A program made the position numbers and the translations under genes. Below are positions 1-48,500 of a stretch of DNA of 64,000 nucleotides, one piece after another. The DNA lies in the IMG/VR virus record IMGVR_UViG_3300038379_000822, positions 1 through 64,000 of that record, one strand, 5' to 3'. This stretch comes from a virus. The notes under the pieces were generated by a model that saw only the letters and a list, made by a program, of their open reading frames with translations, was not told the DNA's origin and made no database searches. Each line of letters opens with the position of its first letter. Position 1 is the stretch's first letter.

Positions 1-132
1 AAATGCTGCAGAACCCCAAGGTTCCCAGCTTCGCGAGCGGTCCCGGAACTGTGACCGGAACCCTCGCGCTCGCGCCATGGAGCTGGCGCACCATCCCCTC
101 TCGGGCCCCGCCTCGGAGGCGTCATGGTTCAT
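1..132. repeat. Left copy of a 132-bp perfect direct repeat (partner 2604..2735) bracketing the Cas12-like/CRISPR cassette; may continue left of the window
   Basis: Base-by-base comparison shows 1..132 is identical to 2604..2735. Identity ends at 133/2736. In minus sense each copy begins at the last base of the final sense codon plus the TGA stop of the gene upstream (stops at 129..131 and 2732..2734). Confidence 0.95.
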
Positions 133-1565
133 TCGGCTGCTTGCTCCCGAAGAGCAGCAGCCAGGTCCTCCTCTTGCTTGAGACGTTTGTTCCAGGTGTC
201 TGGGTTGAAGCCGCTTCGGCGCAGCATGTGCAGTGCTGCGACAAAGTCGGCTTCTCGGTGAAACGAGCATGCGCGGCAATGGAAAATGCCGGTACGCGTG
301 TTGTGTGCGGCCGTGTCCGTAACGTTGCAACGTGGACACGTGCAGGAGATGTACTCCTGTTCGATCTCGACGAGAGCAAGCTCACTCTTCTTGCATGCCC
401 AGTCAATCGCCGCTTTGAGTTGGTAGTACGGGAAGCGCGGAAGAAACCGTCGCACGTTACGATCTTCGTCCGGACCGATGCCGCCATACTGCTCGATCAC
501 GATGGACCCGCATCCTTGCAGTTTGGCGAGCTCGACCACGGCAGACGCTGCCTGCTGGCAGGCCGTCTTCACGACGCGGGCCTCGAGATCTTCGATACGA
601 CTGACCGCATCGAAGCGACGATCACGCCCATGACCTTTCGCGCCATCGCCGCGCTCATACGGCGAAACCATCCCCATGTCACGCCGGCGAGCAGCAAGGG
701 ATTGCTTCTGCGCGCGCAACTTGTTGCCGCGGATGAGCTTCCGGAAGTGGCCTTCGGTCGACATGCAAGTGATGAAGTTGTGCATCCCGCGATGCACAAC
801 CAGGGCCTTCTGCTGGTCGACGTCCTTCGCTGGCGTCTTCGGCGCGAAGACACTGAGCAGCACCATCCACTTCTTGCCGTCCTTCGTCAAGATCTTGGCT
901 CCACCCATCTCGAGCTCGCCGGCAGCGACTTGGCGAAGCAGGCTCCAGTGCGGCCCCTTCGTCGTCATCAGCGCGACCTTGATCTTGCCTTGCTTGCGAC
1001 CAGGGTCCAGCGTCATGGAGAGCACTGGCCGGTTGTCCTCGAGCGTGATGTCGAGCTCCGCGCGTCGGAGCGCGACGGGTGCCCCCTTTCCCATGGAGGG
1101 CAGCCGAGTGCTGCGACGTTCCTTCAGCCAGCGCTGCACCGACTGCTTGGCGATCTGATCCCATGCACTGACGGTACCGCCCGGAACGCCGCCCTCGATG
1201 AGGGCCGCGAACCGCTCCTTCACCTTCGCATCCTTGTGCGTGGTCACCCACTCGAGGAAGCTGTCGACCTCCATCTTGCCGGCCTCGTAACCATTGGGCT
1301 TGCGCCCGGACTGGAGTGCGTGAGCGTACTCGAGCGTCGACGCCTGGATACAGCGATGTGCCACAGCGGCGAGTCCGCGCAGCGTCGACCCGAGCTCATC
1401 CCAGGTGCGGTTGAGAGGCTTCGCGATCTCGCACGTCAGCGTGCGAGCGAGCACCTCTTTGCGCCGCTGCTCTTTCGCTTGCTTGTTGGCGAGACGGCGC
1501 TCCTTACGGATACGTGCCGCCGCCTGGTCTTCGGTCTCTGGCTGTTCCTGGGGTGCGTCGCTCAT
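129..1565 (-). CDS. Compact TnpB/Cas12-like (type V-like) RNA-guided effector candidate, 478 aa, with His258 where the RuvC-I Asp is expected
   Basis: ORF 129..1874 trimmed to ATG 1565 (GAGGAA 5-6 nt upstream); codons upstream of it are translated CRISPR repeats. TnpB/Cas12 layout: WED-like KILTKDGKKWMVLLSVF, then ALVVHRGMHNF at the xxGxDxG position, IVIEQY (Glu358), zinc ribbon CTCPRC...CRAC, READFVAALHML (Asp440). It lies directly downstream of the array on the same strand. Confidence 0.8.
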   Translation of the reverse strand: MSDAPQEQPETEDQAAARIRKERRLANKQAKEQRRKEVLARTLTCEIAKPLNRTWDELGSTLRGLAAVAHRCIQASTLEYAHALQSGRKPNGYEAGKMEVDSFLEWVTTHKDAKVKERFAALIEGGVPGGTVSAWDQIAKQSVQRWLKERRSTRLPSMGKGAPVALRRAELDITLEDNRPVLSMTLDPGRKQGKIKVALMTTKGPHWSLLRQVAAGELEMGGAKILTKDGKKWMVLLSVFAPKTPAKDVDQQKALVVHRGMHNFITCMSTEGHFRKLIRGNKLRAQKQSLAARRRDMGMVSPYERGDGAKGHGRDRRFDAVSRIEDLEARVVKTACQQAASAVVELAKLQGCGSIVIEQYGGIGPDEDRNVRRFLPRFPYYQLKAAIDWACKKSELALVEIEQEYISCTCPRCNVTDTAAHNTRTGIFHCRACSFHREADFVAALHMLRRSGFNPDTWNKRLKQEEDLAAALREQAAE

Positions 1566-1645
1566 TGTTTCCTCTTCGACGAGATCTTCATCGTGCTTCA
1601 CTGTCTCTCCGGCATCCATTGCGGCGAATGGCGCTTGCGCTTCCT

Positions 1646-2487
1646 GCTCCATCGGCTCTCCGTTGGAGCAGGCGTTGCGACGCTTGCGACCAAGCACGGC
1701 ATCGACGTAGCGAGCATGCTCCACCGGCTCTCCGTTGGAGTAGTCGTTGCGACTCCCCCCCCCCACGTACACGAAGGAGGGGCGTGCCACGACGCTCCAC
1801 CGGCTCTCCGTTGGAGTAGTCGTTGCGACCAATGAGCGCCCGACCGGAGGCTGAAGTCCCTTGCATTGCTCCACCGGCTCTCCGTTGGAGTAGTCGTTGC
1901 GACGCGCACCCGAGACTCCCGAGTCGATGGAGATGCTCGCTCCACCGGCTCTCCGTTGGAGTAGTCGTTGCGACTGCCAGGCCGCCTAGTACAGGCAGCG
2001 CCCGTGCTGCAGCTCCACCGGCTCTCCGTTGGAGTAGTCGTTGCGACCTTCCAAGAGCTGTGCCGAGAGCACGCGCTGCAGGTTGCTCCACCGGCTCTCC
2101 GTTGGAGTAGTCGTTGCGACGGGCCTGTCGATGAAGGACATCGACGTGGTGGAGCTGCTCCACCGGCTCTCCGTTGGAGTAGTCGTTGCGACTGCGCCCG
2201 CTGCTCGAGCCGGAGGACCTGTACGCGACGGCGCTCCACCGGCTCTCCGTTGGAGTAGTCGTTGCGACCCAAGAAGGGCTGACCGTGGTGATCGACGAGG
2301 GGGTCGCTCCACCGGCTCTCCGTTGGAGTAGTCGTTGCGACGCCAGCGCTCTGCTTCCGTGGGGTCCTGCGCAAAGAGGCTCCACCGGCTCTCCGTTGGA
2401 GTAGTCGTTGCGACGGTGGTTCGGCTCGCCGGCGAGCAGCGTCCCGTAGACGCTCCACCGGCTCTCCGTTGGAGTAGTCGTTGCGAC
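1646..2487 (-). CRISPR. CRISPR array: 11 identical 36-bp repeats plus one degenerate terminal repeat, 11 spacers of 35-40 bp
   Basis: Plus-strand repeat GCTCCACCGGCTCTCCGTTGGAGTAGTCGTTGCGAC starts at 1718, 1794, 1868, 1939, 2012, 2085, 2157, 2233, 2306, 2379 and 2452. A 3-mismatch copy lies at 1646..1681. All spacers are unique. The degenerate repeat is at the cas-proximal end, so the leader is inferred at 2488+ and transcription on the minus strand (repeat reads GTCGCAACGACTACTCCAACGGAGAGCCGGTGGAGC). Confidence 0.95.
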
Positions 2488-2603
2488 GGTCCTGCGAAGA
2501 CCCGTGCGGTTGCGCACGCTTGCGGACCGCTTGGCGAGCGGTCCGTGAAAACCCCCGAGGCGAGGCGCGAAAGGGCGGAGAGACGGCTTCCTGCCGAAGC
2601 AGG
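2488..2603 (-). promoter_or_regulatory. Leader-like, highly structured region upstream (minus sense) of the CRISPR array; a possible promoter/leader or small-RNA (tracr-like) locus
   Basis: Three perfect hairpins are seen: 2503..2518 (6-bp stem), 2523..2545 (8-bp stem) and 2588..2605 (7-bp stem with a 4-nt loop, UUCG in minus sense). The position is opposite the degenerate repeat. Confidence 0.4.
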
Positions 2604-2735
2604 AAATGCTGCAGAACCCCAAGGTTCCCAGCTTCGCGAGCGGTCCCGGAACTGTGACCGGAACCCTCGCGCTCGCGCCATGGAGCTGGCGCACCATCCC
2701 CTCTCGGGCCCCGCCTCGGAGGCGTCATGGTTCAT
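2604..2735. repeat. Right copy of the 132-bp perfect direct repeat (partner 1..132)
   Basis: Identical to 1..132. It overlaps the stop codon of the DUF1643 gene (2732..2734). Confidence 0.95.
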
Positions 2736-3364
2736 GAAACGGTCACCTCACTTTCACTCAAGCCGCGTTGTTGCTCGGCCTTTCCAGAGGTCTTCTTGCT
2801 CCGGGAGCGCGTCTCACGCTGCTCGAGTACACACGGCACCACCAGGGAGTCCTTGGGAAGGTACAAAGGATGCGGCGCACCGTAGTTTCCTGGCTTCGTG
2901 GGATGGCGTAGCGCCATCGGCGGTTCCAGCCCCGCCTGCTCACGTAGCTCGCGCAGCCTACGCCAGACCTGCTGGTCACGGTTCATGAATGAGCCATGCG
3001 TGCCCCCCCATGCGCACACCACGCGGTCCGCGGTGACGGCGATCACGCGCAGCCACTCGTCGTTGTCCGGGCCGACGGGATCTACCGCTGCATTCATCGC
3101 CTTGGGGTCGGTAGCGCGGAATGCGAACAGGTTGCCGCCGAGGAAGATGTCGTAACACCAGTCCCGGCAGAACCCGATGCATCGGCGAATCGTGGGATCG
3201 TTCCTCAGCTCGTCGGCCACCGAAGGGTTCAGCATAATGAAGGCGCAGACCTTCGGTGGAGTGGTCCGGAACATCTTCTGCTGCTTGATGGCGTAGCGGG
3301 AGACGGTGTACCGGTAGATCCGGTCCTCGGAGAAGCGAGTGCCGATTTCGTTGTAGGCGTTCAT
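2732..3364 (-). CDS. DUF1643-family protein
   Basis: 210-aa ORF with motifs FIMLNPSVAD, DPTIRRCIGF, NLFAFRAT, GPDND and VCAWGG, typical of DUF1643. ATGA overlap with the upstream gene at 3361..3364. Confidence 0.75.
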   Translation of the reverse strand: MNAYNEIGTRFSEDRIYRYTVSRYAIKQQKMFRTTPPKVCAFIMLNPSVADELRNDPTIRRCIGFCRDWCYDIFLGGNLFAFRATDPKAMNAAVDPVGPDNDEWLRVIAVTADRVVCAWGGTHGSFMNRDQQVWRRLRELREQAGLEPPMALRHPTKPGNYGAPHPLYLPKDSLVVPCVLEQRETRSRSKKTSGKAEQQRGLSESEVTVS

Positions 3365-3798
3365 GGCACGAGCCTTTCGTCTGCCGAGCGCCAGAGGTCC
3401 GCCCAGGTCAAGCCGTGACCGATGCGGAACCGACGCGAGCTGAACGTGACGTACTGATCTTCGGGATAGAACTGCCGCGAAGCCTCACAGTCGCACGTCG
3501 GCAAGATGTAGAAGTCGCGATCATCGGGCTCCACGACCAGTCGGCCGCAGAGCGGCCGCGGTTCATCGTTCACTTGCGGATGCATGAGCACGAAGTACGA
3601 CGGACAGGTAGCGCGGCCACCAGCCGCGACGCAGGTGCGTGGATCGTTGTGTCGCGAGCAGTCGAGCTCGGGCGCCGTGTAGCCCATGAAGCACGCATAC
3701 GAGTAGCCGGTGGCCGGCGCGTAGCGCGAGGTGCCGTTGCTCGGAGGCGCGCAGCTCACGAGCAGGAGCACGGCAAAGAGGAGCGCCATGCTCTTCAT
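3361..3798 (-). CDS. Predicted lipoprotein (145 aa)
   Basis: Internal ATG 3798 of ORF 3361..4131 overlaps the methyltransferase stop (ATGA). N-terminus MKSMALLFAVLLLVSCA is a signal peptide with an LVSC lipobox. The mature part is Cys-rich. Confidence 0.7.
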   Translation of the reverse strand: MKSMALLFAVLLLVSCAPPSNGTSRYAPATGYSYACFMGYTAPELDCSRHNDPRTCVAAGGRATCPSYFVLMHPQVNDEPRPLCGRLVVEPDDRDFYILPTCDCEASRQFYPEDQYVTFSSRRFRIGHGLTWADLWRSADERLVP

Positions 3799-5156
3799 GC
3801 TGCCTGCTCCAGGAGGTTGGCTCGTACGATGGCCGCCGCCACTTGTGGGCAAACGCTGTTGCCAGCCAGGCGCGTCTGCGCCGTCTTCGTGAACCGTTCT
3901 CCGGCTGCGTCGACATTGATCTCGTAGACCGATGGGAAGCCTTGCGCCGCGAAGAGCTCGCTCGGTTGCAGCATCCGCATGCCGATGTCGACGACCGGCA
4001 TGCCACGCACGAGTACCATGCGGGCGGCTGCTCCGGCCTGCCACGGCGAGTCGTGGCTCGAATCGCCAGCGCTCGGCACATAGTGGCCGCGCATGAAGTC
4101 GTACACCCGCTGCGCCTCGATGTCGGACCACTGGTCACGAAGAGTGGCAAGAGCGAGAGCGTGATGGTCGGTGGCCGTGATCGTACCCAGCGGTTGCCGC
4201 ACGTCGTGACCGACGACCCCGCCGTAGTGCTTCAGCACCACGGGCACCACGAGATGCTTATCGTTGGTGGCGCACACGGTCGCCAGCGGCATGTCGAGCG
4301 ACTGGCCGCGGAAGGTCCCAGCTCCGCAGCCGTCGCGGAGCCCCGCGCCGGTGATCGTCGAGTAGTGGCCATGGCGCACCAGGAACGGAGTCGGCGCATC
4401 GACCACGAAGCGATGGATGCCACGTGCTACGCGAGCGAGCGTCGCCTTGGCCAGCGAACGACGACGCCCGAAGATCGAAGGACAGGGAATCGACCAGTCG
4501 ATGATCTCCGCTGCGGAACGCCAGGACTGAGGGCGCGAGCGACCATGCGTCGCCGTTGGCCATGCCGGTCGGCGCCCATCCGCTCGCGCGACCAGGAAGA
4601 GGCGCTTGCGCGTCGTCGGTGCGCCATAGTCGGCGGCGACCAGGCTCTTCCACTCGAGGCTGTAACCGAGGCCCACCAGCGTTTGGGCCCACGCTTTGAA
4701 GTCTTCGCCTTCGCGCGTCTTGTCCGGGTGGCCATCCGCATCGAGGGGCCCCCACGTCATGAACTCCTCGACGTTCTCCACGATGATGACCCGTGGGCGC
4801 ACGTCGCGCGCCCAGTCGATGACCACGTTCGCGAGGCAGCGGAGCCCCTGGCTGCGCGGAGCCTTGCCTTTCGCGCGACTGAAGTGCGTGCAGTCCGGTG
4901 AGGCCCAGAGCAGCGCCGGCCGTTGCCGGCCGCAGACGTCCTTGGGTTGCACCTGCCAGACATCCTCGAGGAAGTGCTTCGTCTCGGGATGATTGCTGCG
5001 GTGCATGCGAATCGCATCTCGGTCGTGATTGACGGCGATGTTGACCGGGCGCCCGAGAGCCATCGCAATCCCGGTCGAGGCGCCGCCGCCGCCGGCGAAC
5101 AGGTCGATGATGAGGTCGCCGGTGGTCACCGCGTCTCTCCCTTGAGCGGCTCCCAC
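3795..5156 (-). CDS. DNA (cytosine-5)-methyltransferase
   Basis: Motifs DLFAGGGG (I), SPDCTHFS (IV), ENVEEF (VI), QGFP and GNSVCP (X). An alternative GTG start at 5129 overlaps the upstream stop (GTGA). Confidence 0.9.
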   Translation of the reverse strand: MGAAQGRDAVTTGDLIIDLFAGGGGASTGIAMALGRPVNIAVNHDRDAIRMHRSNHPETKHFLEDVWQVQPKDVCGRQRPALLWASPDCTHFSRAKGKAPRSQGLRCLANVVIDWARDVRPRVIIVENVEEFMTWGPLDADGHPDKTREGEDFKAWAQTLVGLGYSLEWKSLVAADYGAPTTRKRLFLVARADGRRPAWPTATHGRSRPQSWRSAAEIIDWSIPCPSIFGRRRSLAKATLARVARGIHRFVVDAPTPFLVRHGHYSTITGAGLRDGCGAGTFRGQSLDMPLATVCATNDKHLVVPVVLKHYGGVVGHDVRQPLGTITATDHHALALATLRDQWSDIEAQRVYDFMRGHYVPSAGDSSHDSPWQAGAAARMVLVRGMPVVDIGMRMLQPSELFAAQGFPSVYEINVDAAGERFTKTAQTRLAGNSVCPQVAAAIVRANLLEQAA

Positions 5157-5374
5157 GTCTCGGGCGCGCGCCCGAGGAACATGATGATGTCATCGTAGGC
5201 GAACCCGCCGCGCTGGGCGATGCGCTCGGCGTCCTGCCCCTTGCCGCAGCGCCGCGCGTACGCCTCCCGGATCAGCACGTGCTCGCTCCAGGCGATCGTG
5301 CCACCGGGACGGCTCTGCCCCCGCGGCCGCCAGTGGCCCTGCACGGGCGCGCGACGTTCGTCAGTGCTGGTCAT
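5126..5374 (-). CDS. Hypothetical protein (82 aa)
   Basis: ATG 5374 overlaps the stop of the upstream gene (ATGA); the stop overlaps the GTG of the methyltransferase. The N-terminal part of the longer track ORF is Arg-rich and was trimmed. Confidence 0.55.
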   Translation of the reverse strand: MTSTDERRAPVQGHWRPRGQSRPGGTIAWSEHVLIREAYARRCGKGQDAERIAQRGGFAYDDIIMFLGRAPETWEPLKGETR

Positions 5375-5652
5375 GGTGCGGCTCCAGGCGGCAGCGATCC
5401 CTCGGACGTGACGCCTTCGCGTTCGACGAAGGGGTCGCAGCGGATCAGCTCGAGGTCGGTCAGCGAGCACACGGTGTGAGCCTCGTCGGCCAGAAGCAAG
5501 GCAGCGCGAGCGCGTGCACCGAACCACGTCCGGTGGTTGGCGCGCACGTATAGGCTCGTCCCCGACCCTCGGTACTGGAACAGCCATTGCGTGCTCCCGG
5601 GCGGCGGGGGCAAGAACGCTGCCTTGCGCGACGGCTTCTGAGAATGCTTCAT
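5371..5652 (-). CDS. Hypothetical protein (93 aa)
   Basis: ATG 5652 (MKHSQKPSRK...) is the first start after the intergenic palindrome. The stop is coupled to the next gene. Confidence 0.55.
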   Translation of the reverse strand: MKHSQKPSRKAAFLPPPPGSTQWLFQYRGSGTSLYVRANHRTWFGARARAALLLADEAHTVCSLTDLELIRCDPFVEREGVTSEGSLPPGAAP

Positions 5653-5666
5653 ACGTCGAGTTGCCG

Positions 5667-5684
5667 GTGCTAGCATGCTAGCAC
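5667..5684. promoter_or_regulatory. Palindrome GTGCTAGCATGCTAGCAC (tandem TGCTAGCA), site 1 of a recurring intergenic motif
   Basis: Perfect 18-bp palindrome in the 68-nt gap between two minus-strand genes (5652/5721). The same core recurs at 9859..9888, 27689..27704, 38535..38544 and 54842..54881. Confidence 0.6.
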
Positions 5685-5720
5685 TCGTGAGTCCAGCGCT
5701 CGCCAGGGCGGCGGATGCGT

Positions 5721-6425
5721 TCATGGCGCGTCCATGTCGCTCACAGGCGCTTCATGGCTCGACGGCGTTCTCCAGTCGATCCATCCATGGTGACGCTGCT
5801 GCGCGCTGTCGTGGCGCCAGACGAAGACGCCGTACTCCGCATTGTCGGTGCCGCCTTCGGTGAAGCTCGGTCGTGGCCGCACCACGTACAGCCGATCGTA
5901 CGGGTGTGCATACCACCATGCCCGCCGCTTCGCTCCGCCGAGCACCGACAGCCGAAGAAGCATCGCGGTCGTGGTGCCACACCCCAGCGCCCGCGCAACG
6001 TGCTCGTGCCAGATGGGCTCCCCGTACTTCCGGCCAGGTACAGTTACAGCGAACGGCGGATTGCCCACGACCAGATTGAACTTGTCCGCGATCCGTTCGC
6101 AAGAGTCACCAAGCAGCTGGGTAGGCTCCGTCGTCAAAAAGTCACCGACCACGGATCGGTCGCACAGGGTAAGACCTGGCACCTGCGGGTTGATGTCGAC
6201 ACCGACGATGAACGATTGTTGGAAGACAGTGCGCAGCGCCTGCACGAACGAGCCACTGCCCACGCTGGGTTCCAGTACCCGCGATGGCGGGTCTGACGCG
6301 AAGAGATCGTCCTTCAGTCGACGCACAATGGCCAGCGTGAGTTCCGGCTGCGTGGTGTAGGCGTCATTGGCACGGCGCTTGTGAGCCGGCTTCTTGCGGC
6401 GTGGGGGCGTGGCTTCGGTGGTCAT
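5721..6425 (-). CDS. N6-adenine DNA methyltransferase (NPPF type)
   Basis: Motif I LEPSVGSGSF and motif IV GNPPF, with a basic N-terminus; 234 aa. Confidence 0.85.
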   Translation of the reverse strand: MTTEATPPRRKKPAHKRRANDAYTTQPELTLAIVRRLKDDLFASDPPSRVLEPSVGSGSFVQALRTVFQQSFIVGVDINPQVPGLTLCDRSVVGDFLTTEPTQLLGDSCERIADKFNLVVGNPPFAVTVPGRKYGEPIWHEHVARALGCGTTTAMLLRLSVLGGAKRRAWWYAHPYDRLYVVRPRPSFTEGGTDNAEYGVFVWRHDSAQQRHHGWIDWRTPSSHEAPVSDMDAP

Positions 6426-6511
6426 CGCTTGTGTCCTACTGCGTTCCAGAGCACCACCAGCACCACGAGCGATGCCAGGGTCAGATGAAAGAGGATGTCG
6501 GACGGTTCCAT
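6422..6511 (-). CDS. Small hydrophobic peptide (29 aa), tentative
   Basis: Hand translation gives MEPSDILFHLTLASLVVLVVLWNAVGHKR. The start shares a base with the upstream stop (TGATG) and the stop overlaps the downstream ATG (ATGA), filling an otherwise empty 85-nt gap. Confidence 0.35.
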   Translation of the reverse strand: MEPSDILFHLTLASLVVLVVLWNAVGHKR

Positions 6512-7020
6512 CAGTTCAGGTTCGTCTTGGACGCCGGCGCTTCGCCGGTCGGCGCCTCCTCGGTTTCCTCATCGGTGAACTTCTTCACGATGAGCACGCT
6601 CGCCTCCTGAAGCGCCGACAACAGGACGCCTTCCGGCTGGCCATTGCCCATGGCTTGCGCCAACCCCGTCATGCAGCGCTGGCCATCCGGCGTCTTGCCG
6701 TGCGGGATGTACACGCTGAACATCCATTGGCCATCCGGTAAGCGCTGCGTCTCCAGGGCGAGCATCGTCACGGCCCGCCTCGGCGTGTTCATGCGCTGCA
6801 CCCATGCGTCGCATGCGTTCGCGATGACGCCGATGTTCGCGAGCGACGCGATCGCGAGCGGCTCCGACTGCTCGGTATCGAGCAGCTCTGGGGCGTCCCG
6901 AACTACATTCCTCTTCTGGCGTCCTCGTGCGCGCCCTGCCTGATAGACCAGGGGGGCCACCAGGACGCAGACCACGAACATGACGATGATGGCGACCAAG
7001 GTCGCCTTGGCTTCCGTCAT
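6511..7020 (-). CDS. Hypothetical membrane-anchored protein (169 aa)
   Basis: N-terminal hydrophobic segment LVAIIVMFVVCVLVAPLVY. ATGA overlap with the upstream gene at 7017..7020. Confidence 0.6.
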   Translation of the reverse strand: MTEAKATLVAIIVMFVVCVLVAPLVYQAGRARGRQKRNVVRDAPELLDTEQSEPLAIASLANIGVIANACDAWVQRMNTPRRAVTMLALETQRLPDGQWMFSVYIPHGKTPDGQRCMTGLAQAMGNGQPEGVLLSALQEASVLIVKKFTDEETEEAPTGEAPASKTNLN

Positions 7021-7382
7021 GGCGCCCCATCGTCGGGTGCGTTCAGGTGGTGCTTCGCGGCGTCCGCGAACGATCCGCCGTAGATGCAGTCGAGCTTCTC
7101 GAAGAGGTAGGCGCGCTCGAAGTCTACCATCGGCAGACCGACTCCCGAATGCTTATGGCAGTTGCTGAAGTCGATCCCATCCAGGTGGGCGCGTCGCGCG
7201 ATCTTGATGTACTCGTTCATGAGTCCCGTGAACTCGATGAACGGATGACACCCGATGAGCATGGCGCGCCGGTAGAACTCATGCGATGCGGCGGCCATCT
7301 CGCGGAGCATCCGCTCACGCTGGTCGTGCGTTGCGCACTCTTCGGGTCGACGTGGCATGGCCGTGGTGACGGGATTGTTCAT
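7017..7382 (-). CDS. Hypothetical protein (121 aa)
   Basis: ATG 7382 (MNNPVTT...) overlaps the stop of the pentapeptide-repeat gene (ATGA). The upstream part of track ORF 7017..7829 is Arg/Pro-rich shadow. Confidence 0.6.
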   Translation of the reverse strand: MNNPVTTAMPRRPEECATHDQRERMLREMAAASHEFYRRAMLIGCHPFIEFTGLMNEYIKIARRAHLDGIDFSNCHKHSGVGLPMVDFERAYLFEKLDCIYGGSFADAAKHHLNAPDDGAP

Positions 7383-8044
7383 GGCTTTCCAATCGGGTAC
7401 TGGCCAGCTTCGGCGCTGGCGAGAAAAGTCGTCGCCCAGCTCAGCGTGATGGCGGCGATGGGGCAGTCTTCGGCGGTGGCGCTGGGCAGGATGCTGGCCA
7501 GCCAGCGGCGCGCCGCTCGGTGATGACGAGTGAAGTCGAGCGGCCCGACGGGCAACCCATTGTGGCTCTGCCGCCCACGGCGCAGATGCTCGATCAGCAT
7601 CAGCAGTGGCGCGAGGCCTTGCTGCCGGATGCGAGAGGCGATGAAGGCATCGAACGCTTCGCGGATGGCCTTGAGGTTGGCCATCTGCAGGCGCACGCCC
7701 GACAGATCGGCTGCGTAGAGCTGGGTCATGAACAGCGACGCGCCGTCGAGATCGACATCGCTCAGGTCGGCGAGGGTGAGATCGGCATAGTCGAGCCCCG
7801 CACCCGTGAAGTCTGCCCCGGCGAAGCACAGCTCGCTCAGGTGCGCGCCGGTGAAGTCGATGCCGGCGAGCCGCGCTCCCGCTAGTACGCCCTCGGTAGT
7901 GAAGTGCTCCGCGCCCGTCAGGTGCAAGCCCTTGCCATGGCCCGTGCGATCGCGTGCCACCGCCTCGAGCGCGTCCTTGGGAGAGCGCCCCGTCAGCACG
8001 ATCGTCTCGCGCTCGCTGCCACGGGTCAGGCGGTAGTGGTTCAC
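7379..8044 (-). CDS. Pentapeptide-repeat protein
   Basis: Consecutive A(D/N)LxG-type pentapeptides (GARLAGIDFTGAHLSELCFAGADFTGAGLDYADLTLADLSDVDLDGASLFMTQLYAADLSGVRLQMANL). Confidence 0.8.
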   Translation of the reverse strand: MNHYRLTRGSERETIVLTGRSPKDALEAVARDRTGHGKGLHLTGAEHFTTEGVLAGARLAGIDFTGAHLSELCFAGADFTGAGLDYADLTLADLSDVDLDGASLFMTQLYAADLSGVRLQMANLKAIREAFDAFIASRIRQQGLAPLLMLIEHLRRGRQSHNGLPVGPLDFTRHHRAARRWLASILPSATAEDCPIAAITLSWATTFLASAEAGQYPIGKP

Positions 8045-42079: not shown

Positions 42080-43685
42080 TCGGCGGGGCGGCTCGAGCAC
42101 TGAGTCTCGCCGCGCTCGGCTCGAAGCGGCGGTGGTGTTCATGCTGCTTTGCTCGGCACAGGCGCCGGGAGGTCGAGCCCGAGGAAACGGCGCACTCCGT
42201 CACGGGTGCCGAGCGGATTGGCGCAGAGGAAGCGGAGCTTGAGGAAGAGGTGGTCGTGGTCCCGGTACCCACGGCCGCGACGGACCAAGGCTTCCCAGTT
42301 GTTGTTGAGGGCTTCGAGGCGGCCGGTCTTCGGGCGGAGTCGCACGAGGGCGAGGATGCCGTCCCAGTGAGCCAAGAGGCTGTCATGCAGCTTGCGCATC
42401 GGCTGGTTGGCGCGCCTCGCAGTGGCGCGGAGGATGTGATGCATCGCCGTTCCGAGTTCGGCGGCGCGCCGCAGCTTGAGCGCGTCACGCAGAGCCTCCA
42501 CGGTCTGGTAGGCGCGAGCGAGCTTACCGTTGCTGGCGACGAAGAGGGCTCGCAGCTGCTTGCGCTCGGGCTCGGCGAGGCGCGCCCAAGGTCGCAGCAA
42601 CAACCATCGCGCACCACGACCGAGGCCGCGGAGCTCAGCGCCGCCGCGGAAGAAGAGTTCGCGACGCAGTTCGCTGAGCGCTTCACCCGCGCGTTTCATG
42701 ATGTGGAAGGGGTCGTGCACGTAGGCCGCATGGGCGAGGTCCGGCTCCTCACGAATCGCCTTCTTGAAGGGCGCGTACATGTCGGACGCAACGAGCCGCA
42801 CGCGCCGCTTCTGCTTCTTGGTGAGCGTCGCGAGCCACTGCTTCACCGTCTCGGCGTCGCGACCGCGTCCCATCCAGACGGGCTCGCCAGTCTCGAGATC
42901 ACTCACCAGCGTGACGAAGCGCTCCGCGAGGCGGTTGCGTCGGCCGAGCCACTTCTCGTCGAGGCCGACGTGGCGAAGCGGCGGTCGAGGCGTCGACCGG
43001 TCCCAGCGCTCGAGCGCTGCCCGCTCCGCGCGCCTCACCGCATGCCAGTCCACTTCGTGCGCTGCGGCCACGTGGGAGAGCGGTGCCGACGCCGCCTCGA
43101 AGGCAAGCTGCTGCTGAAAAGCTCGGGTCGTTCGCTGCTTCGCGTCCGCCCAAGGCAGCAGCTCCGTGCACGAGCTCCCGCACTGCTTGCACCGGTACCG
43201 CGCCGCCGCGTACTCGATGCTCGCTGGATGACCGCGCAGCGGCAGCTCCTGCCACTGTCGGGGAGGGCGCCGCTCGTGGCACCGCGACTCCGGGACCAGA
43301 GCCCTGCAGTGCCCGCAGCGGGCCGCCCACCGGCGCCGCAACGTGATGACCAGCCGCGCCGACCGCGGCGCCGGCAGCATCGGCCCTACCTCGAGCTCGC
43401 GCCCGTCCGAGCCGACCCACCGGCAGCCCACCACTTTCCACCCCACGTAACCCGCTACCTCGTTCAGAATCCGCAGGCGCTGTCCCATCTCGGCCCTCTC
43501 CTCGGTGCTCAAGAACAACGAGAAGAAGCCACCGCACTTCGGCGGTGTCGATGGGGCAGCGCGCTCACCCGCCGACGCCCACGAACTCAAGCCAACCGAG
43601 CGAGATCAGCCGAGTTCGCGCCGACCCCGATTCGCCCGAAGAGCGGAAAACATCTTCTCGGCGCTCAGTGGTCGCGGTCAGGTTG
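42080..43685 (-). mobile_element. ISL3-family insertion sequence (boundaries approximate)
   Basis: Contains the transposase gene. The candidate imperfect terminal inverted repeats are GCTCGAGCACTGAG (about 42091..42104) and CTCAGTGGTCGCGG (about 43664..43677). No clean target duplication was found by eye. Confidence 0.5.
42139..43488 (-). CDS. ISL3-family DDE transposase (449 aa)
   Basis: N-terminal zinc-finger CGHC...CKQCG, HVGLDEKWLGRRN..FVTLVSDLETGEPVW, VASDMYAPFKKAI, VHDPFHIMKR, and C-terminal TGRLEALNNNWEALVRRGRGYRD. ATG 43488. Confidence 0.85.
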   Translation of the reverse strand: MGQRLRILNEVAGYVGWKVVGCRWVGSDGRELEVGPMLPAPRSARLVITLRRRWAARCGHCRALVPESRCHERRPPRQWQELPLRGHPASIEYAAARYRCKQCGSSCTELLPWADAKQRTTRAFQQQLAFEAASAPLSHVAAAHEVDWHAVRRAERAALERWDRSTPRPPLRHVGLDEKWLGRRNRLAERFVTLVSDLETGEPVWMGRGRDAETVKQWLATLTKKQKRRVRLVASDMYAPFKKAIREEPDLAHAAYVHDPFHIMKRAGEALSELRRELFFRGGAELRGLGRGARWLLLRPWARLAEPERKQLRALFVASNGKLARAYQTVEALRDALKLRRAAELGTAMHHILRATARRANQPMRKLHDSLLAHWDGILALVRLRPKTGRLEALNNNWEALVRRGRGYRDHDHLFLKLRFLCANPLGTRDGVRRFLGLDLPAPVPSKAA

Positions 43686-45126: not shown

Positions 45127-45572
45127 GCAGCACGTCGTGGTCATCGCTAGTGAAGCAGGTGAGTCAGCCAGATGACGCATTGCGCGTGAGCGTCTCGGGC
45201 GAGTTCCGGTTCCACGTCTTTCGCGAAGGTCTGATCGTTGAGGATCAGCACTTCGCCTGCGAAGTGCACTTCTACACGAGCTGCTTCGCGGGGCACAGCT
45301 GCTCCCAGCAGACTAGCATCAGCGAGTGGTTCTACTGTTCGCTCTGGCGCGAACTCTACCCGGAGCCGCTTGCTGTGGGGCGTCAGACGCTGCCTGGGTA
45401 CCGGCTTCGCGACAGCGACATGCTGTTGCAGCTTGCGCAAGGCATTGCCGCACGGCCGGAGGATGTGACGTTCCTGAACGTATGCCTCATCGGGGATCCG
45501 AGTTTCACGCGTGCATTCAAAGAACTCGTTTATGACTGCAGGCGCGAGAACCGGCACGCTCAGCGCACCTGA
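45123..45572 (+). CDS. Hypothetical protein (149 aa), last gene of the rightward block
   Basis: ATGA overlap. Its 3' end overlaps the convergent giant ORF by 13 nt. Confidence 0.6.
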   Translation: MSSTSWSSLVKQVSQPDDALRVSVSGEFRFHVFREGLIVEDQHFACEVHFYTSCFAGHSCSQQTSISEWFYCSLWRELYPEPLAVGRQTLPGYRLRDSDMLLQLAQGIAARPEDVTFLNVCLIGDPSFTRAFKELVYDCRRENRHAQRT

Positions 45573-48500
45573 AGCGCGGCCATCACACGGAACGGCGACG
45601 GCAGCGCGCTCGTCATCTTGACCGCTGCATCCTGCATCGCCGTGAGCGCCGACTCCGTGACGTAGACGTGCGTGTCGGACGGGTTCTTGGTGATGCGCCC
45701 ATCGAAGCCAATCCGGAACAGCTTCGTGCGCGCAGCGCTATCCGCACGATGCTTCAGGAGCACGCGGCGTCCCGGGTTCTCAACCATCTTCTTGCGACGC
45801 GACGCGCGCTCACCCCCTGCGCTGGCGATGACGATGTCCGTCTCTGCGGACCGGCGACGCTCCGCCCGCACGGCTTCGGCTGCCGACCTGCTGATGCGTA
45901 GCGACATGTTCCCGGTCTCCGGGTCGAGCAGCTCCATCACCGACGCTTCTTCCGCGGAGACGCGCGAGATCTCGGCGGCGAAGCTCAGACTGACGGCCAT
46001 CTGCTGAGCGGCGGCCTCGAGCTGAGCCGGAGTAGCTTCCTCGGTCGTGACCTCCTCGCCAGTGAGCAGCTTGCGCACGATGGCTGCCTGCGACGTGAGC
46101 CATAACCGGCGAGCGTTGGCGCCAGCGACGATGGTTCCTCCGATCTCGCGAGCTTGGCGCTCCATCTGCTCGGGCGCAGGGACGACCGTGGCCAGGTACT
46201 GGAGCATCACGCCCCACACGAGCTTGGTGTTGTCGCCCTTGTCCGCGCGGATGCCCTTGCTCTCGCGTCCGGTGGCGACGACGTACTCCCACATCGCTCG
46301 GCATGCGCGCCGCAGGACGAGTTGCGGGAACGGAACATCAAACCGCGCACGAAATCGCTGCTGGGCGCTCTCATCGAGCGTAATCGTGTGCTTCTTCTGA
46401 TCGATCGCGAAGAACGCGGCGTCGAAGAGCGGGCTGTCCGCGAAGATGTTCACCGGACCGGGGTCGCCCTCTGCGAGAGGCACGTAACGATTCAGGTAGG
46501 CGATCACGAGCGGTCGGATATCGCGCCCGGTCTCGCGGCCGCCGAGGTCGGCGTCTTCCGGAAGCGGCAACGCCTTGGCCTCAAAGCCTGCGCGCAGGAG
46601 AGCCACGTTCTCCTTGGTCGCTGCAAGCTGCTCGCGGTACTCGCGCTTCCCCGTGATCCCGTAGCGGCTGACGATGCGCTCGGTGACCTCGGCATCGCCC
46701 GCGAAGAACTGCTTGCTCAGCGCGTTGAGCTCCGCGAGCTTTCGTTGCTCCTCGAGGTAGAAGGTCAGCTCCTTCTCGAGCAGCTCTCGCCGCTTCTCAA
46801 CGCTCTGCTCGGCGAAGGCGACGTTCTTGCGGCGGGTCTCCTTGCGTTCGGAGCTGAGACGCTGCCCCGTGACGCTGGCCAGCCAGCTCGTGAACCGCTT
46901 CCATTCGTCGGCGCTGCGCTTGTAGATGCTGTGCACCGGATCGTCTTCCGCGAACCATACCGGCAGCTCTTCCGCAAACCCCACGCCCGAGCTCGCCGCA
47001 CCGATGAATGCTTCCGCGAAGGCCTCATCGTCCTTGCGATCTTCGACCCCGCGCCCGCGCTTCATCTCCGTCATGTAGCGAGCCGTCACCAAGAAGGTGT
47101 GGGCGTTGAGCTCGAACCACTTGGCGAGCCAGTCGTCGCTGTGTGCCCGCAGTGCCGCGCCGCGCTCGATGGCGGCCTCGTAGGGCATCCACGTGGGCGT
47201 CGGCCGCTTCCGCTTGCGGAAGTACTCGAGCAGCGTCCCGGTGATGTGCGAGAAGGCCCCGAACCATCGCATGAGCCCATACGTGCGACTCGGTTGAGCG
47301 CTGCCTGCCCAGTCGGCGTAGAGCCGATCGAGCGCGTTCAGCAGCGGCGTGTCCTCGGTATCGGGCCAGATCTGCGCTGGGGCAAGCACGGGGAGCGCCG
47401 GGATCTTGATCTTCTTCTTCTCGGTCGAGAAGACCGGATCAGCGAGCACGATGCCGTCATCGGAGACGTGGCTCGCTCGCGCAAAGAAGGGGAGCAGCGT
47501 ATCGACCCCGATGCCGTAGTTCCGGGGCCATGGATCGTAGAACTCGGCCAAGAACGAGTGCTTGTTGTTGTTCAGCTGGTAGAGCTTCTCGCCGCGCGAC
47601 TCGTCGATGACTTCAGCACCAGGGCGCGCGGTCTTGCTCGTCTTGGTCCATTCGATGCGCTCCGCATCATCGGTTCCGAACATGTCGTAAGCCCAGTCCG
47701 GCGACCCGGCACTCACGTCATCGACCGGGCTATGCGGGACCTCGGCCTGCCGGTGCTCGCCGGCATCGAGATCGACAGCCACGATGCGGTCATCGCGATC
47801 GACGATGGCCACACCGCCGGGTCCGGGCTCGACATCGACGGCGCGGAGGGGAACGTCCTCGCCGATCGTGGGCACCACAGGGACCTCCCAGGGGGGAGGG
47901 GCCTCGGCCACGGGCGCGGGCGGAGCGACTGGAGGAGGAGGCTCTGGACGGCGCGGAGCGGCCGCAGCAGGCGACTGCTGCACTTCGACCGCGTAGGTGT
48001 CGATCACCTGCGGCGAAGGCTTTCTGGGAGCGCTTGGCGGCGGCGAAGCCGGTTGCGCTGGAGCAGTCGAGATGCCGGCCCGGGCCGCAATCTTCTCGAT
48101 GTAGGACAGGATCTCGGTCTGACCGGTGAGGCGTTCGGCCGCGCCAATCTCCTCGAGGTAGCCCTCGGTGGTGGTCACCGACTCATGCCCCAAGATCGCC
48201 TGCACCTCCCGCAAGGGCTTGCCGGCCTCGATCATGGCCGTCGCGGCAAAGTGCCGAAGGGCGTGCGGATGCAGTAGCTTCAGCTCATCGTCCGTGAGCC
48301 CAGCATGCAGTCCGAGCCGTCGAAGCCACGCGCGACTCGCGGGGCGCGTCATGCTTCGCCGGTAGTTGAGCTCGGCGTTCGGCTTGAACTCCTGGTACTT
48401 GCCAGCAGCATTCGCTCCCCAGAGCCGCAGCGGAGGGAAGAGTGGAGCATCGGCGTTCACGACGAGTTCGCGTAGGCGTTCGTCCGCGCGAGGGCGGCGC

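What the first reader, a model, noticed from the sequence alone, without database searches (positions are those of the whole stretch)
1..2735. The CRISPR-Cas cassette is bracketed by 132-bp perfect direct repeats that each start at a stop codon
Positions 1..132 and 2604..2735 are 100% identical. In minus sense each copy begins with the last base of the final sense codon plus the TGA stop: the DUF1643 gene (2732..2734) for the right copy and the Cas12-like gene (129..131) for the left copy. The structure looks like gene-X-stop plus downstream sequence R, then leader-array-cas12-stop plus R again. This implies the 2.6-kb unit was inserted as a cassette exactly after a stop codon, carrying or duplicating the downstream segment. 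It could be lost or gained by homologous recombination between the repeats. Perfect identity suggests a recent event or ongoing conversion. The left copy touches the window edge, so the repeat may be longer.
Basis: seen in the sequence. Interest (0 to 1): 0.78.

Follow-up and report, generated by a model that had tools for sequence, protein, structure and literature searches.

The report
Guide-RNA scaffold copies flank phage CRISPR
The 132-base perfect repeat is real, but it is the first two-thirds of the CRISPR system's own helper-RNA (tracrRNA-like) gene, present three times in this phage-like genome, so it marks a rearranged, recombination-prone CRISPR cassette rather than a duplicated insertion site.

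Summary
Observation confirmed: window 1-132 equals 2604-2735 exactly, and each copy starts at a TGA stop. The interpretation needs revision. The repeat (R) is not the 3' flank of the DUF1643 gene. It is positions 1-117 of a 163-position structured RNA conserved next to the Cas12f-like gene or its array in distant relatives. The structure is covariation-supported, and one hairpin loop covaries with the 3' end of the CRISPR repeat, as a tracrRNA anti-repeat would. Only copy 2604-2735, together with the 'leader', forms the complete scaffold. Copy 1-132 has lost its 3' third as far as the data go.

All relatives with arrays carry the array downstream of the gene, so this locus is a circular permutation of the family layout. 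A third identical copy (127 nt, inverted) follows another gene's stop about 97.6 kb away on the same 111,584-bp contig. The window starts at a contig end, and contigs from another sample stop at the same base, so R is an unresolved assembly-graph node. One sample gives a circular 2,382-bp contig with a single R, which is the product expected from R x R recombination or tandem amplification. No empty DUF1643 site was seen. What follows the left copy remains unknown.

The parts
1..132 (-). R copy B: truncated tracrRNA-like scaffold (P1 5' strand, H2 with anti-repeat loop at 78-83, H3, H4) directly after the cas12f-like stop codon. It ends at the window/contig end.
   Evidence: Identical to 2604-2735. 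CM R1 hit at 1-126, 94.6 bits, model positions 1-117 of 163, cut off at its 3' end. L021 and L004 end at the same base.
129..1565 (-). Cas12f/TnpB-like effector gene (478 aa plus stop). The RuvC-I Asp is replaced by His.
   Evidence: Pfam PF07282, 7.7e-09. NCBIfam guided_TnpB, 3e-24, below cutoff. PDB AsCas12f 8j3r/7wju, about 1e-27, with 'VVHRG' aligned to 'GIDLG'.
1566..1645 (-). 80-nt junction between the terminal degenerate repeat and the cas12 start codon. It is unique sequence, identical in L003 and L021.
1646..2487 (-). CRISPR array: 12 repeats of 36 nt (GTCGCAACGACTACTCCAACGGAGAGCCGGTGGAGC on the minus strand) and 11 spacers of 35-40 nt. The degenerate repeat is at 1646-1681, next to cas12.
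   Evidence: L003 carries the same array minus spacers 4-6. L021 carries all 11 spacers.
2488..2603 (-). 'Leader', which is the 3' continuation of the scaffold. 2568-2603 holds hairpin H5 (CCTGCTTCGGCAGG) and the 3' strand of the closing helix P1. 2488-2567 is the linker to the first repeat and holds the conserved GACCGCTCGCC motif.
   Evidence: The CM R1 full-length hit 2568-2729 (123.5 bits) spans the R/leader boundary. Independent folds of six homologues agree. Alignment.
2604..2735 (-). R copy A: the 5' two-thirds of the complete scaffold (anti-repeat loop GCUCCA at 2681-2686). It starts at the A+TGA that ends the DUF1643 ORF.
2732..3364 (-). DUF1643 gene, whose stop codon lies inside R (junction GTTTC|ATGAACC).
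   Evidence: Pfam PF07799, 6e-34. PHROG 3230. Sequence.

Best explanation
R is the first 132 nt of the tracrRNA-like (omega-RNA-derived) scaffold of a phage-borne Cas12f-like CRISPR system. The complete scaffold is R copy A plus about 36 nt of the 'leader' (window 2568-2729, minus strand). It is a multi-branch RNA closed by a long-range helix P1. Its H2 loop (GCUCCA) pairs with the 3' end of each CRISPR repeat (UGGAGC). In the family the scaffold normally lies between gene and array. Here the unit is circularly permuted to scaffold->array->gene, and the gene is still followed by the first 132 nt of the scaffold (copy B). A third 127-nt copy (C) follows an unrelated gene Z, in inverted orientation, about 95 kb away. 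The three copies are 100% identical. The same genome encodes RecT and a YqaJ exonuclease. I therefore infer that the copies are kept identical by recombination and serve as its substrates. A x B recombination excises or tandemly amplifies the 2.4-2.6-kb cassette, which is the junction seen in L003, and recombination with C inverts large segments. The junctions at DUF1643 (ATGA) and Z (CCATGA) look like microhomology joins that lend R's stop codons to those ORFs. Shown: the identity of R, the structure and its covariation, the permutation relative to relatives, three genomic contexts, and the circular contig. Inferred: that the integrated two-copy form is the physical genome, that recombination is ongoing, and that copies B and C are non-functional as tracrRNA.
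For: Scaffold homology. The H2/H3 motifs lie 190-255 nt upstream of the first repeat in L005, L010, L011, L015 and L016. Six sequences fold independently into the same P1-H2-H3-H4-H5 architecture. CM R1 also finds members it was not trained on: L014 (5e-10), L008/L013 (9e-09) and L017 twice. Covariation: 89.4% of cells are paired against 68.4% in shuffles and 38-48% in slid controls, and 26 of 33 pairs show compensatory changes. The anti-repeat loop covaries with the repeat 3' end: CUCCA:UGGAG, CUCCG:CGGAG (L008), CCCGA:UCGGG (L017). R matches only model positions 1-117 of 163. The array is downstream of the gene in every relative that has one. Third copy: L004 starts with R 1-127 and then runs into an unrelated gene Z, whose TGA lies inside R. 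Z, the lysin, cas12 and DUF1643 all sit on a 111,584-bp contig. The Logan contig places Z->R at about 97.6 kb, inverted. The Logan k=31 contigs end at r30 and r35, exactly as expected for entries merging at r1 and r6. The circular contig L003 has one R. RecT and YqaJ are in L024.
Against: The sequence after copy B is unknown, because the window, L021 and L004 all stop at r132. The assembly graph is the same whether the cassette is integrated once, tandemly repeated, or a free circle. L003 could be a chimeric walk through a 132-bp repeat shorter than the reads' resolving power. No cassette-less DUF1643->R->X contig was found. The position of copy C and the 13.9 kb beyond it are inferred from a Logan contig plus the contig length, not read directly. 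The CM-derived alignment is fitted to the model, so the pair counts lean towards the structure. No expression data exist.
Confidence: 0.65

Rival explanations
1. One reading: a mobile 2.6-kb cassette was inserted just after the DUF1643 stop codon. It duplicated the target's own downstream segment R, much like a long target-site duplication or attL/attR pair.
For: Perfect direct repeats start at stop codons. A circular single-R form exists.
Against: R is homologous to the scaffold RNA beside cas12 or the array in relatives that have no DUF1643 neighbour, for example DnaB in L005. R is therefore cassette-native, not target-native. The cas12-stop->scaffold junction is ancestral (L010, L011). No integrase or transposase lies inside the cassette. 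R's distal end cuts a conserved helix.
Confidence: 0.07
2. Assembly-graph artefact, or a non-integrated form. The cassette is really a free circle or a tandem array, or sits at another R. The contig's DUF1643->R->cassette->R path is only one traversal of a loop hanging on a 3-copy repeat.
For: The window starts at a contig end inside R. L002, L021 and L004 all break in or at R. L003 is a closed cycle that does not break at R. R (132 nt) is near typical k-mer and read lengths, and L004 shares exactly 127 nt.
Against: A 2.4-kb circle with no replication gene is not a plausible replicon. The junctions DUF1643|R and Z|R are seen with two assemblers, and the k=31 contig ends fit three real entries. 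The 111-kb assembly resolved two of the three copies.
Confidence: 0.18
3. Copies B and C are complete extra guide-RNA genes. Each R would be followed by a diverged 3' scaffold part and a solitary repeat plus fixed guide, as in L017 and L011. Only the 5' 127-132 nt would have been homogenised by gene conversion.
For: L017 has two complete scaffold copies bracketing its cas12-like gene, one followed by a single degenerate repeat. L011 has a scaffold plus a single repeat and no array.
Against: The L017 copies are only loosely alike across their whole length, not perfect over part of it. Copy C starts 5 nt into R and lends its stop codon to an unrelated gene. All three copies end at the same base r132, in the middle of the structure. 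The sequence beyond r132 is not available.
Confidence: 0.08
4. R is a site-specific recombination site (integron attC/VCR-like, or an att site) or the terminal inverted repeat or physical end of a linear genome.
For: A repeat of about 130 nt directly after the stop codons of three different genes, plus a circular single-site form, resembles integron cassettes. Contigs end at the same base, and the terminal sequence is 5'-AAATGC.
Against: There are no RYYYAAC/GTTRRRY core sites. The fold has four separate hairpins rather than one imperfect palindrome. No IntI-type integrase is nearby; the only tyrosine-recombinase domain is in a 1,369-aa protein 43 kb away. Copy C appears to be internal, with about 13.9 kb beyond it, which argues against a genome end.
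Confidence: 0.04

Closest known systems
tracrRNA of miniature type V systems (Cas12f; Cas12 'hacker'/V-P) and the omega-RNA of TnpB
   Same: A long, multi-stem RNA encoded beside a TnpB-like effector of about 450-550 aa. A pseudoknot or anti-repeat pairs with the 3' end of the repeat; this is described as general for Cas12 tracrRNAs in bioRxiv 10.1101/2025.01.20.633832. In several relatives the scaffold starts at or overlaps the gene's 3' end, as the omega-RNA does (PMC10097598).
   Different: Here the 5' two-thirds of the scaffold gene is present in three identical copies. Two of them are detached from the array and abut unrelated ORFs. The effector has His in place of the RuvC-I Asp.
Recombination between direct repeats (Campbell-type excision/integration; solo-LTR formation; unequal crossing-over)
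   Same: Perfect 132-bp direct repeats flank a 2.5-kb unit. A circular or tandem junction with one repeat is seen (L003). A 'solo' R exists at another locus (after gene Z). The phage encodes RecT and YqaJ.
   Different: The repeat is a fragment of the cassette's own functional RNA gene, not a long terminal repeat or att site. An empty site at DUF1643 has not been observed.
Integron gene cassettes (attC / Vibrio VCR repeats)
   Same: Elements of about 120-130 bp directly after the stop codons of unrelated ORFs, and cassettes that are circular with a single site.
   Different: There are no attC core sites, no single bulged hairpin and no IntI. R is homologous to a tracrRNA scaffold.
Repeat-mediated modular shuffling in phage genomes (e.g. 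PeSL elements of T4-type phages; recalled from memory, not checked here)
   Same: Short identical intergenic modules at gene ends that promote the gain, loss and reordering of accessory genes.
   Different: Those modules are promoter/stem-loop units of about 50-70 bp. Here the module is a piece of a guide-RNA gene, and it flanks a CRISPR-Cas unit.
Locus L017 (IMG/VR 297-kb contig), a distant member of the same family
   Same: The cas12-like gene is bracketed by two scaffold copies in direct orientation.
   Different: Both L017 copies are complete and have diverged from each other with compensatory changes, which implies an old and probably functional duplication. The window copies are perfect, and one is truncated as far as it can be seen.

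Membership tests
Type V-F-like (Cas12f/TnpB-derived) CRISPR-Cas | Effector with a TnpB-type RuvC and a zinc-ribbon (TNB) domain, about 400-550 aa | tested here: met
   PF07282, 7.7e-09. AsCas12f structures at about 1e-27 over residues 42-446.
Type V-F-like (Cas12f/TnpB-derived) CRISPR-Cas | Intact RuvC D-E-D catalytic triad | tested here: not met
   RuvC-I Asp (AsCas12f GIDLG) aligns to His in 'VVHRG'. H-R-G is invariant in 23 homologues. The Glu and the third Asp are conserved.
Type V-F-like (Cas12f/TnpB-derived) CRISPR-Cas | Adjacent CRISPR array on the gene strand | tested here: met
   12 repeats at 1646-2487. Arrays are present in nearly all relatives examined; L011/L012 carry only a single repeat.
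Type V-F-like (Cas12f/TnpB-derived) CRISPR-Cas | Adaptation genes (cas1/cas2/cas4) | not tested
   None is seen among the few flanking ORFs that were scanned, but no systematic scan was made.
tracrRNA / omega-RNA-type scaffold | Conserved secondary structure supported by covariation | tested here: met
   26 of 33 pairs show compensatory changes. 89.4% of cells are paired, against 68% in shuffles and about 40% in slid controls. Independent MFE folds agree.
tracrRNA / omega-RNA-type scaffold | Anti-repeat complementary to the CRISPR repeat | tested here: met
   The H2 loop and the repeat 3' end covary in three states across ten scaffold copies.
tracrRNA / omega-RNA-type scaffold | Expressed, and bound by the effector | not testable with these tools
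   Needs RNA-seq or RIP.
Integron cassette / attC | R''(RYYYAAC)...R'(GTTRRRY) core sites and a single imperfect-palindrome fold | tested here: not met
   Sequence read directly. The fold gives four separate hairpins.
Integron cassette / attC | IntI integrase adjacent | tested here: not met
   None within the flanking ORFs. The only tyrosine-recombinase domain is in a 1,369-aa ORF at 45.5-49.7 kb.
IS200/IS605 TnpB transposon | TnpA and LE/RE ends, with a guide that flanks the RE | tested here: not met
   There is no TnpA ORF in the 2.6-kb unit. The guides come from a CRISPR array.
Repeat-mediated (homologous) excision/amplification unit | Identical direct repeats long enough for RecT-type recombination | tested here: met
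   132 of 132 nt identical. RecT and YqaJ are encoded in the same genome.
Repeat-mediated (homologous) excision/amplification unit | Recombinant junction (circle or tandem) observed | tested here: inconclusive
   L003 is a circular contig with one R, but it could be an assembler's walk through the repeat.
Repeat-mediated (homologous) excision/amplification unit | Empty site (DUF1643->single R->downstream sequence) | tested here: inconclusive
   Not found. All DUF1643 contigs stop inside R. The public DNA collections lack these samples.

The most novel reading that the evidence does not exclude
The tracrRNA-derived block R works as a portable homology 'handle'. With the phage's own RecT/YqaJ system, the whole effector-array unit can pop out as a circle, amplify in tandem, or re-enter at any R-tagged gene end (solo R copies such as the one after gene Z). 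That would make it a homology-driven, integrase-free mobile CRISPR cassette, and inverted copies would also flip large genome segments.
Probability: 0.2. Interest if true: 0.7.

Novelty: new variant of a known kind. Interest (0 to 1): 0.45.

Why it matters
It identifies what the repeat is: part of a covariation-supported tracrRNA-like scaffold for a little-studied, phage-borne Cas12f-like clade. It also shows that a fragment of a guide-RNA gene can be dispersed in a genome and bracket its own CRISPR-Cas unit. If the circular or tandem form is physical, it would be a simple recombination-based route by which phages gain, lose, amplify or relocate a CRISPR module without a dedicated recombinase. 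Practically, it is a warning that this 'cassette' sits on an unresolved assembly node. The scaffold model and anti-repeat rule derived here would also allow single-guide design for this compact effector family, whose RuvC-I Asp->His change suggests unusual activity.

Tried and rejected
- Rfam scan of 1-4000: nothing relevant.
- Promoter/terminator consensus scan: nothing in R or the leader.
- Exact-pattern scans for the R core: 0 hits in metagenome contigs and genome contigs, so these samples are not held there. One hit in IMG/VR (L004).
- The search for related loci with the single Cas12f-like protein in IMG/VR: no relatives. The alignment worked.
- Attempt to recover the sequence beyond r132 by searching for proteins that start with the R-encoded peptide: the query was too short, then no candidates.
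The 111,584-bp contig itself is not retrievable with the look-up tools.
- BLAST of 1-8000 against GenBank phages: only C5-methylase hits, no related backbone.
- DUF1643 relatives in IMG/VR are only 33-45% identical, too distant to serve as an 'empty site'.
- Spacer matches to the window and all fetched loci: chance-level 14-mers only.
- tblastx of L004 against the window: no real homology apart from R.
- The attC/integron and linear-genome-end (ITR) ideas were considered and rejected (see rivals).
- PHROGs and Pfam on large neighbouring ORFs gave little context.
Full report
**1. The observation**

Window 1-132 and 2604-2735 are identical over all 132 bases, and identity stops at 133 versus 2736. 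BLAST of the unit against the whole 64 kb finds only these two copies (E=1e-67) plus chance matches of at most 16 nt.

Read on the minus strand, each copy starts with A-TGA. The TGA at 129-131 ends a 478-aa ORF (132-1565). That ORF carries the Cas12f1-like TNB domain (PF07282, 7.7e-09). It matches NCBIfam guided_TnpB below cutoff, and AsCas12f structures at about 1e-27. The TGA at 2732-2734 ends a DUF1643 ORF (PF07799, 6e-34).

Between the copies lie a 12-repeat/11-spacer array (1646-2487) and 116 nt of 'leader' (2488-2603). The array's repeat is 36 nt, and its degenerate repeat sits next to the cas12 start. The description is therefore accurate.

**2. What R is**

I call the gene-direction (minus-strand) bases of the repeat r1-r132.

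In loci encoding relatives of the effector (35-43% identity), the sequence just after the stop codon is visibly homologous to R plus the leader. Examples:
- Window: GCGCCAGCTCCATGGCGC-GAG-CGCGAGGG...CTCGCG
- L010: GCGCCGGCTCCACGGCGC-AAA-CGCGAGAG...CTCGCG
- L011: GCGGTGACTCCACACCGC-AAA-TGCGAGAG...CTCGCA

Each is followed by a hairpin: window CCTGCTTCGGCAGG, L010 CCTGGCTTCGGCCAGG, L011 CCCTGCAATGTCAGGG. In the window this hairpin lies beyond r132, inside the 'leader'. The same motif lies 190-255 nt upstream of the first CRISPR repeat in L005, L015 and L016.

Six sequences fold independently into one architecture. A long-range closing helix P1 encloses hairpins H2 (loop xCUCCA), H3, H4 and H5. 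A covariance model built on them (R1, 163 positions) gave these hits:
- The window's copy A plus leader at full length (2568-2729, 123.5 bits).
- Untrained members L014 (5e-10), L008/L013 (9e-09) and two copies in L017.
- Window 1-126 matched only model positions 1-117 (94.6 bits, cut at its 3' end).

On the ten-sequence model alignment 89.4% of cells pair, against 68.4% in shuffles and 38-48% when partners are slid. Twenty-six of 33 pairs show compensatory changes, including all 8 pairs of P1. One caveat is that this alignment is fitted to the model.

P1 joins R's 5' part to sequence beyond r132. R alone therefore lacks H5 and half of P1.

**3. The scaffold is a tracrRNA-type RNA**

The H2 loop is complementary to the 3' end of the CRISPR repeat, and the two covary:
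- CUCCA with UGGAG in the window, L005, L010, L011, L015 and L016.
- CUCCG with CGGAG in L008.
- CUCCG with UGGAG (a G.U pair) in L014.
- CCCGA with UCGGG in both L017 copies.

Pseudoknot pairing between the tracrRNA and the repeat 3' end is described as general for Cas12 tracrRNAs (bioRxiv 10.1101/2025.01.20.633832). In L008/L013 the scaffold lies upstream of the gene while the array lies downstream, so it can act in trans.

**4. The locus is a permuted version of the family layout**

In every relative that has an array, the array is downstream of the gene on the same strand. The relatives are L005, L008/L013, L010 and L014-L018. In L010 and L011 the scaffold begins 3-9 nt after the stop codon, as copy B does here. 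The C-terminal codons GCNGCCGAATGA are shared with L010.

The junction cas12-stop->R (copy B) and the junction R->leader->array (copy A) are therefore both ancestral. The window order scaffold->array->gene->R is a rotation of gene->scaffold->array.

DUF1643 simply borrows R's stop codon (GTTTC|ATGAACC). Two of R's three reading frames hit a TGA within 11 nt, so ending at a stop codon is not remarkable for a fused ORF.

**5. More copies, and the assembly context**

An IMG/VR contig from sample 3300043259 (L004, 24.7 kb) starts at exactly the same base as the window. It shares R 1-127 and then runs into an unrelated 208-aa gene Z, whose TGA is the second TGA of R. Z, its neighbours, cas12, DUF1643 and a gene at window 62 kb are all recorded on one 111,584-bp contig.

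A 54,001-bp Logan contig links window 52-64 kb to Z. It places Z->R at window-frame about 97.6 kb, with Z on the plus strand. That makes it an inverted third copy with about 13.9 kb of contig beyond it.

The Logan k=31 contigs end at r30 (after DUF1643) and r35 (after Z). These are the values expected if one further sequence merges at r1 (cas12) and Z merges at r6.

In sample 3300043259 all three entries are broken at R:
- L002 ends at r113.
- L021 runs array->cas12->R and ends at r132.
- L004 ends at r132.

The window start is therefore a contig end at an unresolved repeat node, and nothing shows what follows copy B. A self-consistent model is a circular genome of about 111.46 kb whose contig opens in copy B, with the 13.9-kb segment flanked by inverted copies B and C. 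This is an inference.

**6. Evidence for recombination**

L003 (sample 3300043242) is a 2,476-bp contig with a 94-nt exact terminal overlap, which makes it a 2,382-bp circle. It reads array->cas12->R->leader->array with a single R and an array lacking spacers 4-6.

This is the junction expected from recombination between copies A and B, either as an excised circle or as a tandem amplification. It does not break at R, which suggests the cycle outweighs the flanking joins in that sample. It could still be an assembler's walk through a 132-bp repeat.

The same genome encodes RecT and a YqaJ-type exonuclease, which would act efficiently on 132-bp identities (established knowledge of Red/RecET-type systems). 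Perfect identity of all three copies fits recent spread or ongoing conversion. No cassette-less DUF1643 site was found, because the collections that can be searched by DNA do not hold these samples.

**7. Comparison with known systems**

The unit works like a miniature type V-F/TnpB-derived system with a tracrRNA. Membership is qualified because the RuvC-I Asp is His in the whole clade.

R is not an attC site. It has no core sites, folds into four hairpins and has no IntI nearby. It is not an IS605 end. It is unlikely to be a genome terminus, because copy C appears to be internal.

The nearest analogue for the arrangement is recombination between direct repeats, as in Campbell-type excision or solo-LTR formation. 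L017 shows that two scaffold copies can bracket the gene in this family, but those copies are complete and diverged.

**8. Verdict**

The 'cassette inserted after a stop codon with duplication of the downstream segment' reading is replaced by a different one. R is a truncated copy of the system's own tracrRNA-like scaffold. It is present at least three times, brackets a permuted CRISPR unit, and probably drives that unit's excision, amplification and inversion.

I rate it a new variant of known things (a tracrRNA-bearing miniature type V system, and repeat-mediated rearrangement), of moderate interest. The physical state of the locus remains to be settled by read-level data.

Noticed in passing
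window 132-1565 (minus); residue H258 of the 478-aa protein ('LVVHRGMHN'): The RuvC-I catalytic Asp (AsCas12f 'GIDLG') is replaced by His, and H-R-G is invariant in all 23 homologues. The RuvC-II Glu and RuvC-III Asp are kept. The clade may be nuclease-dead or use an altered active site.
   Followed up: partly
L017 2910-3064 and 5436-5616 (IMG/VR 3300033233_000001, 297 kb): Two complete, diverged scaffold copies in direct orientation bracket the cas12-like gene. The upstream copy is followed by a single degenerate repeat (about 3138-3170), the downstream copy by a 5-repeat array. This may be a natural single guide plus a normal array.
   Followed up: partly
L011 7398-7683 / L012: This homologue has the scaffold followed by one repeat-like unit and no array, an omega-RNA-like arrangement within a CRISPR-associated clade.
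   Followed up: no
L008 6072-6227 / L013 3829-3984; L005 7357-7507: The scaffold position varies. It is upstream of the gene in L008/L013. In L005 it lies inside the annotated 3' end of the ORF, where the first repeat overlaps the ORF end. The long ORF calls (557-558 aa) probably over-extend.
   Followed up: partly
window-frame ~97.6 kb (L004 1-127; L022 10622-10748): The third R copy is inverted relative to the window copies. Inverted 127-bp identities about 14 kb and about 95 kb apart could flip large genome segments.
   Followed up: partly
L003 versus window 2150-2370: The circular contig's array lacks spacers 4-6 of the window array. L021 has all 11. This shows population-level spacer deletion.
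   Followed up: yes
window 42142-43590 (minus): An ISL3-family transposase (PF01610, 4e-44) sits inside the phage-like genome. By coordinate arithmetic, the 54-kb Logan contig ends at about window 43.6 kb, beside it.
   Followed up: no
window 45563-49669 (minus): A 1,369-aa ORF with a tyrosine-recombinase (Phage_integrase) domain at residues 439-505. This is unusually large for an integrase.
   Followed up: no
window 2529-2549 and the equivalent position in relatives: A motif GACCGCTCGC(C/G)AA about 70 nt upstream of the first repeat is conserved across loci. It resembles the 3' strand of H3, so it may be an alternative pairing or a second anti-repeat element.
   Followed up: no
window 1754-1763: Spacer 10 ends in a run of ten G (ten C on the plus strand). 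The same run is in L003 and L021, so it is not a single-assembly error.
   Followed up: no
L024 7044-8973: RecT and a YqaJ-like exonuclease, with DnaB nearby, are encoded in the same genome. No terminase, portal or capsid gene was recognised among the ORFs scanned, so the 'phage' label rests on the IMG/VR call and a lysin.
   Followed up: no
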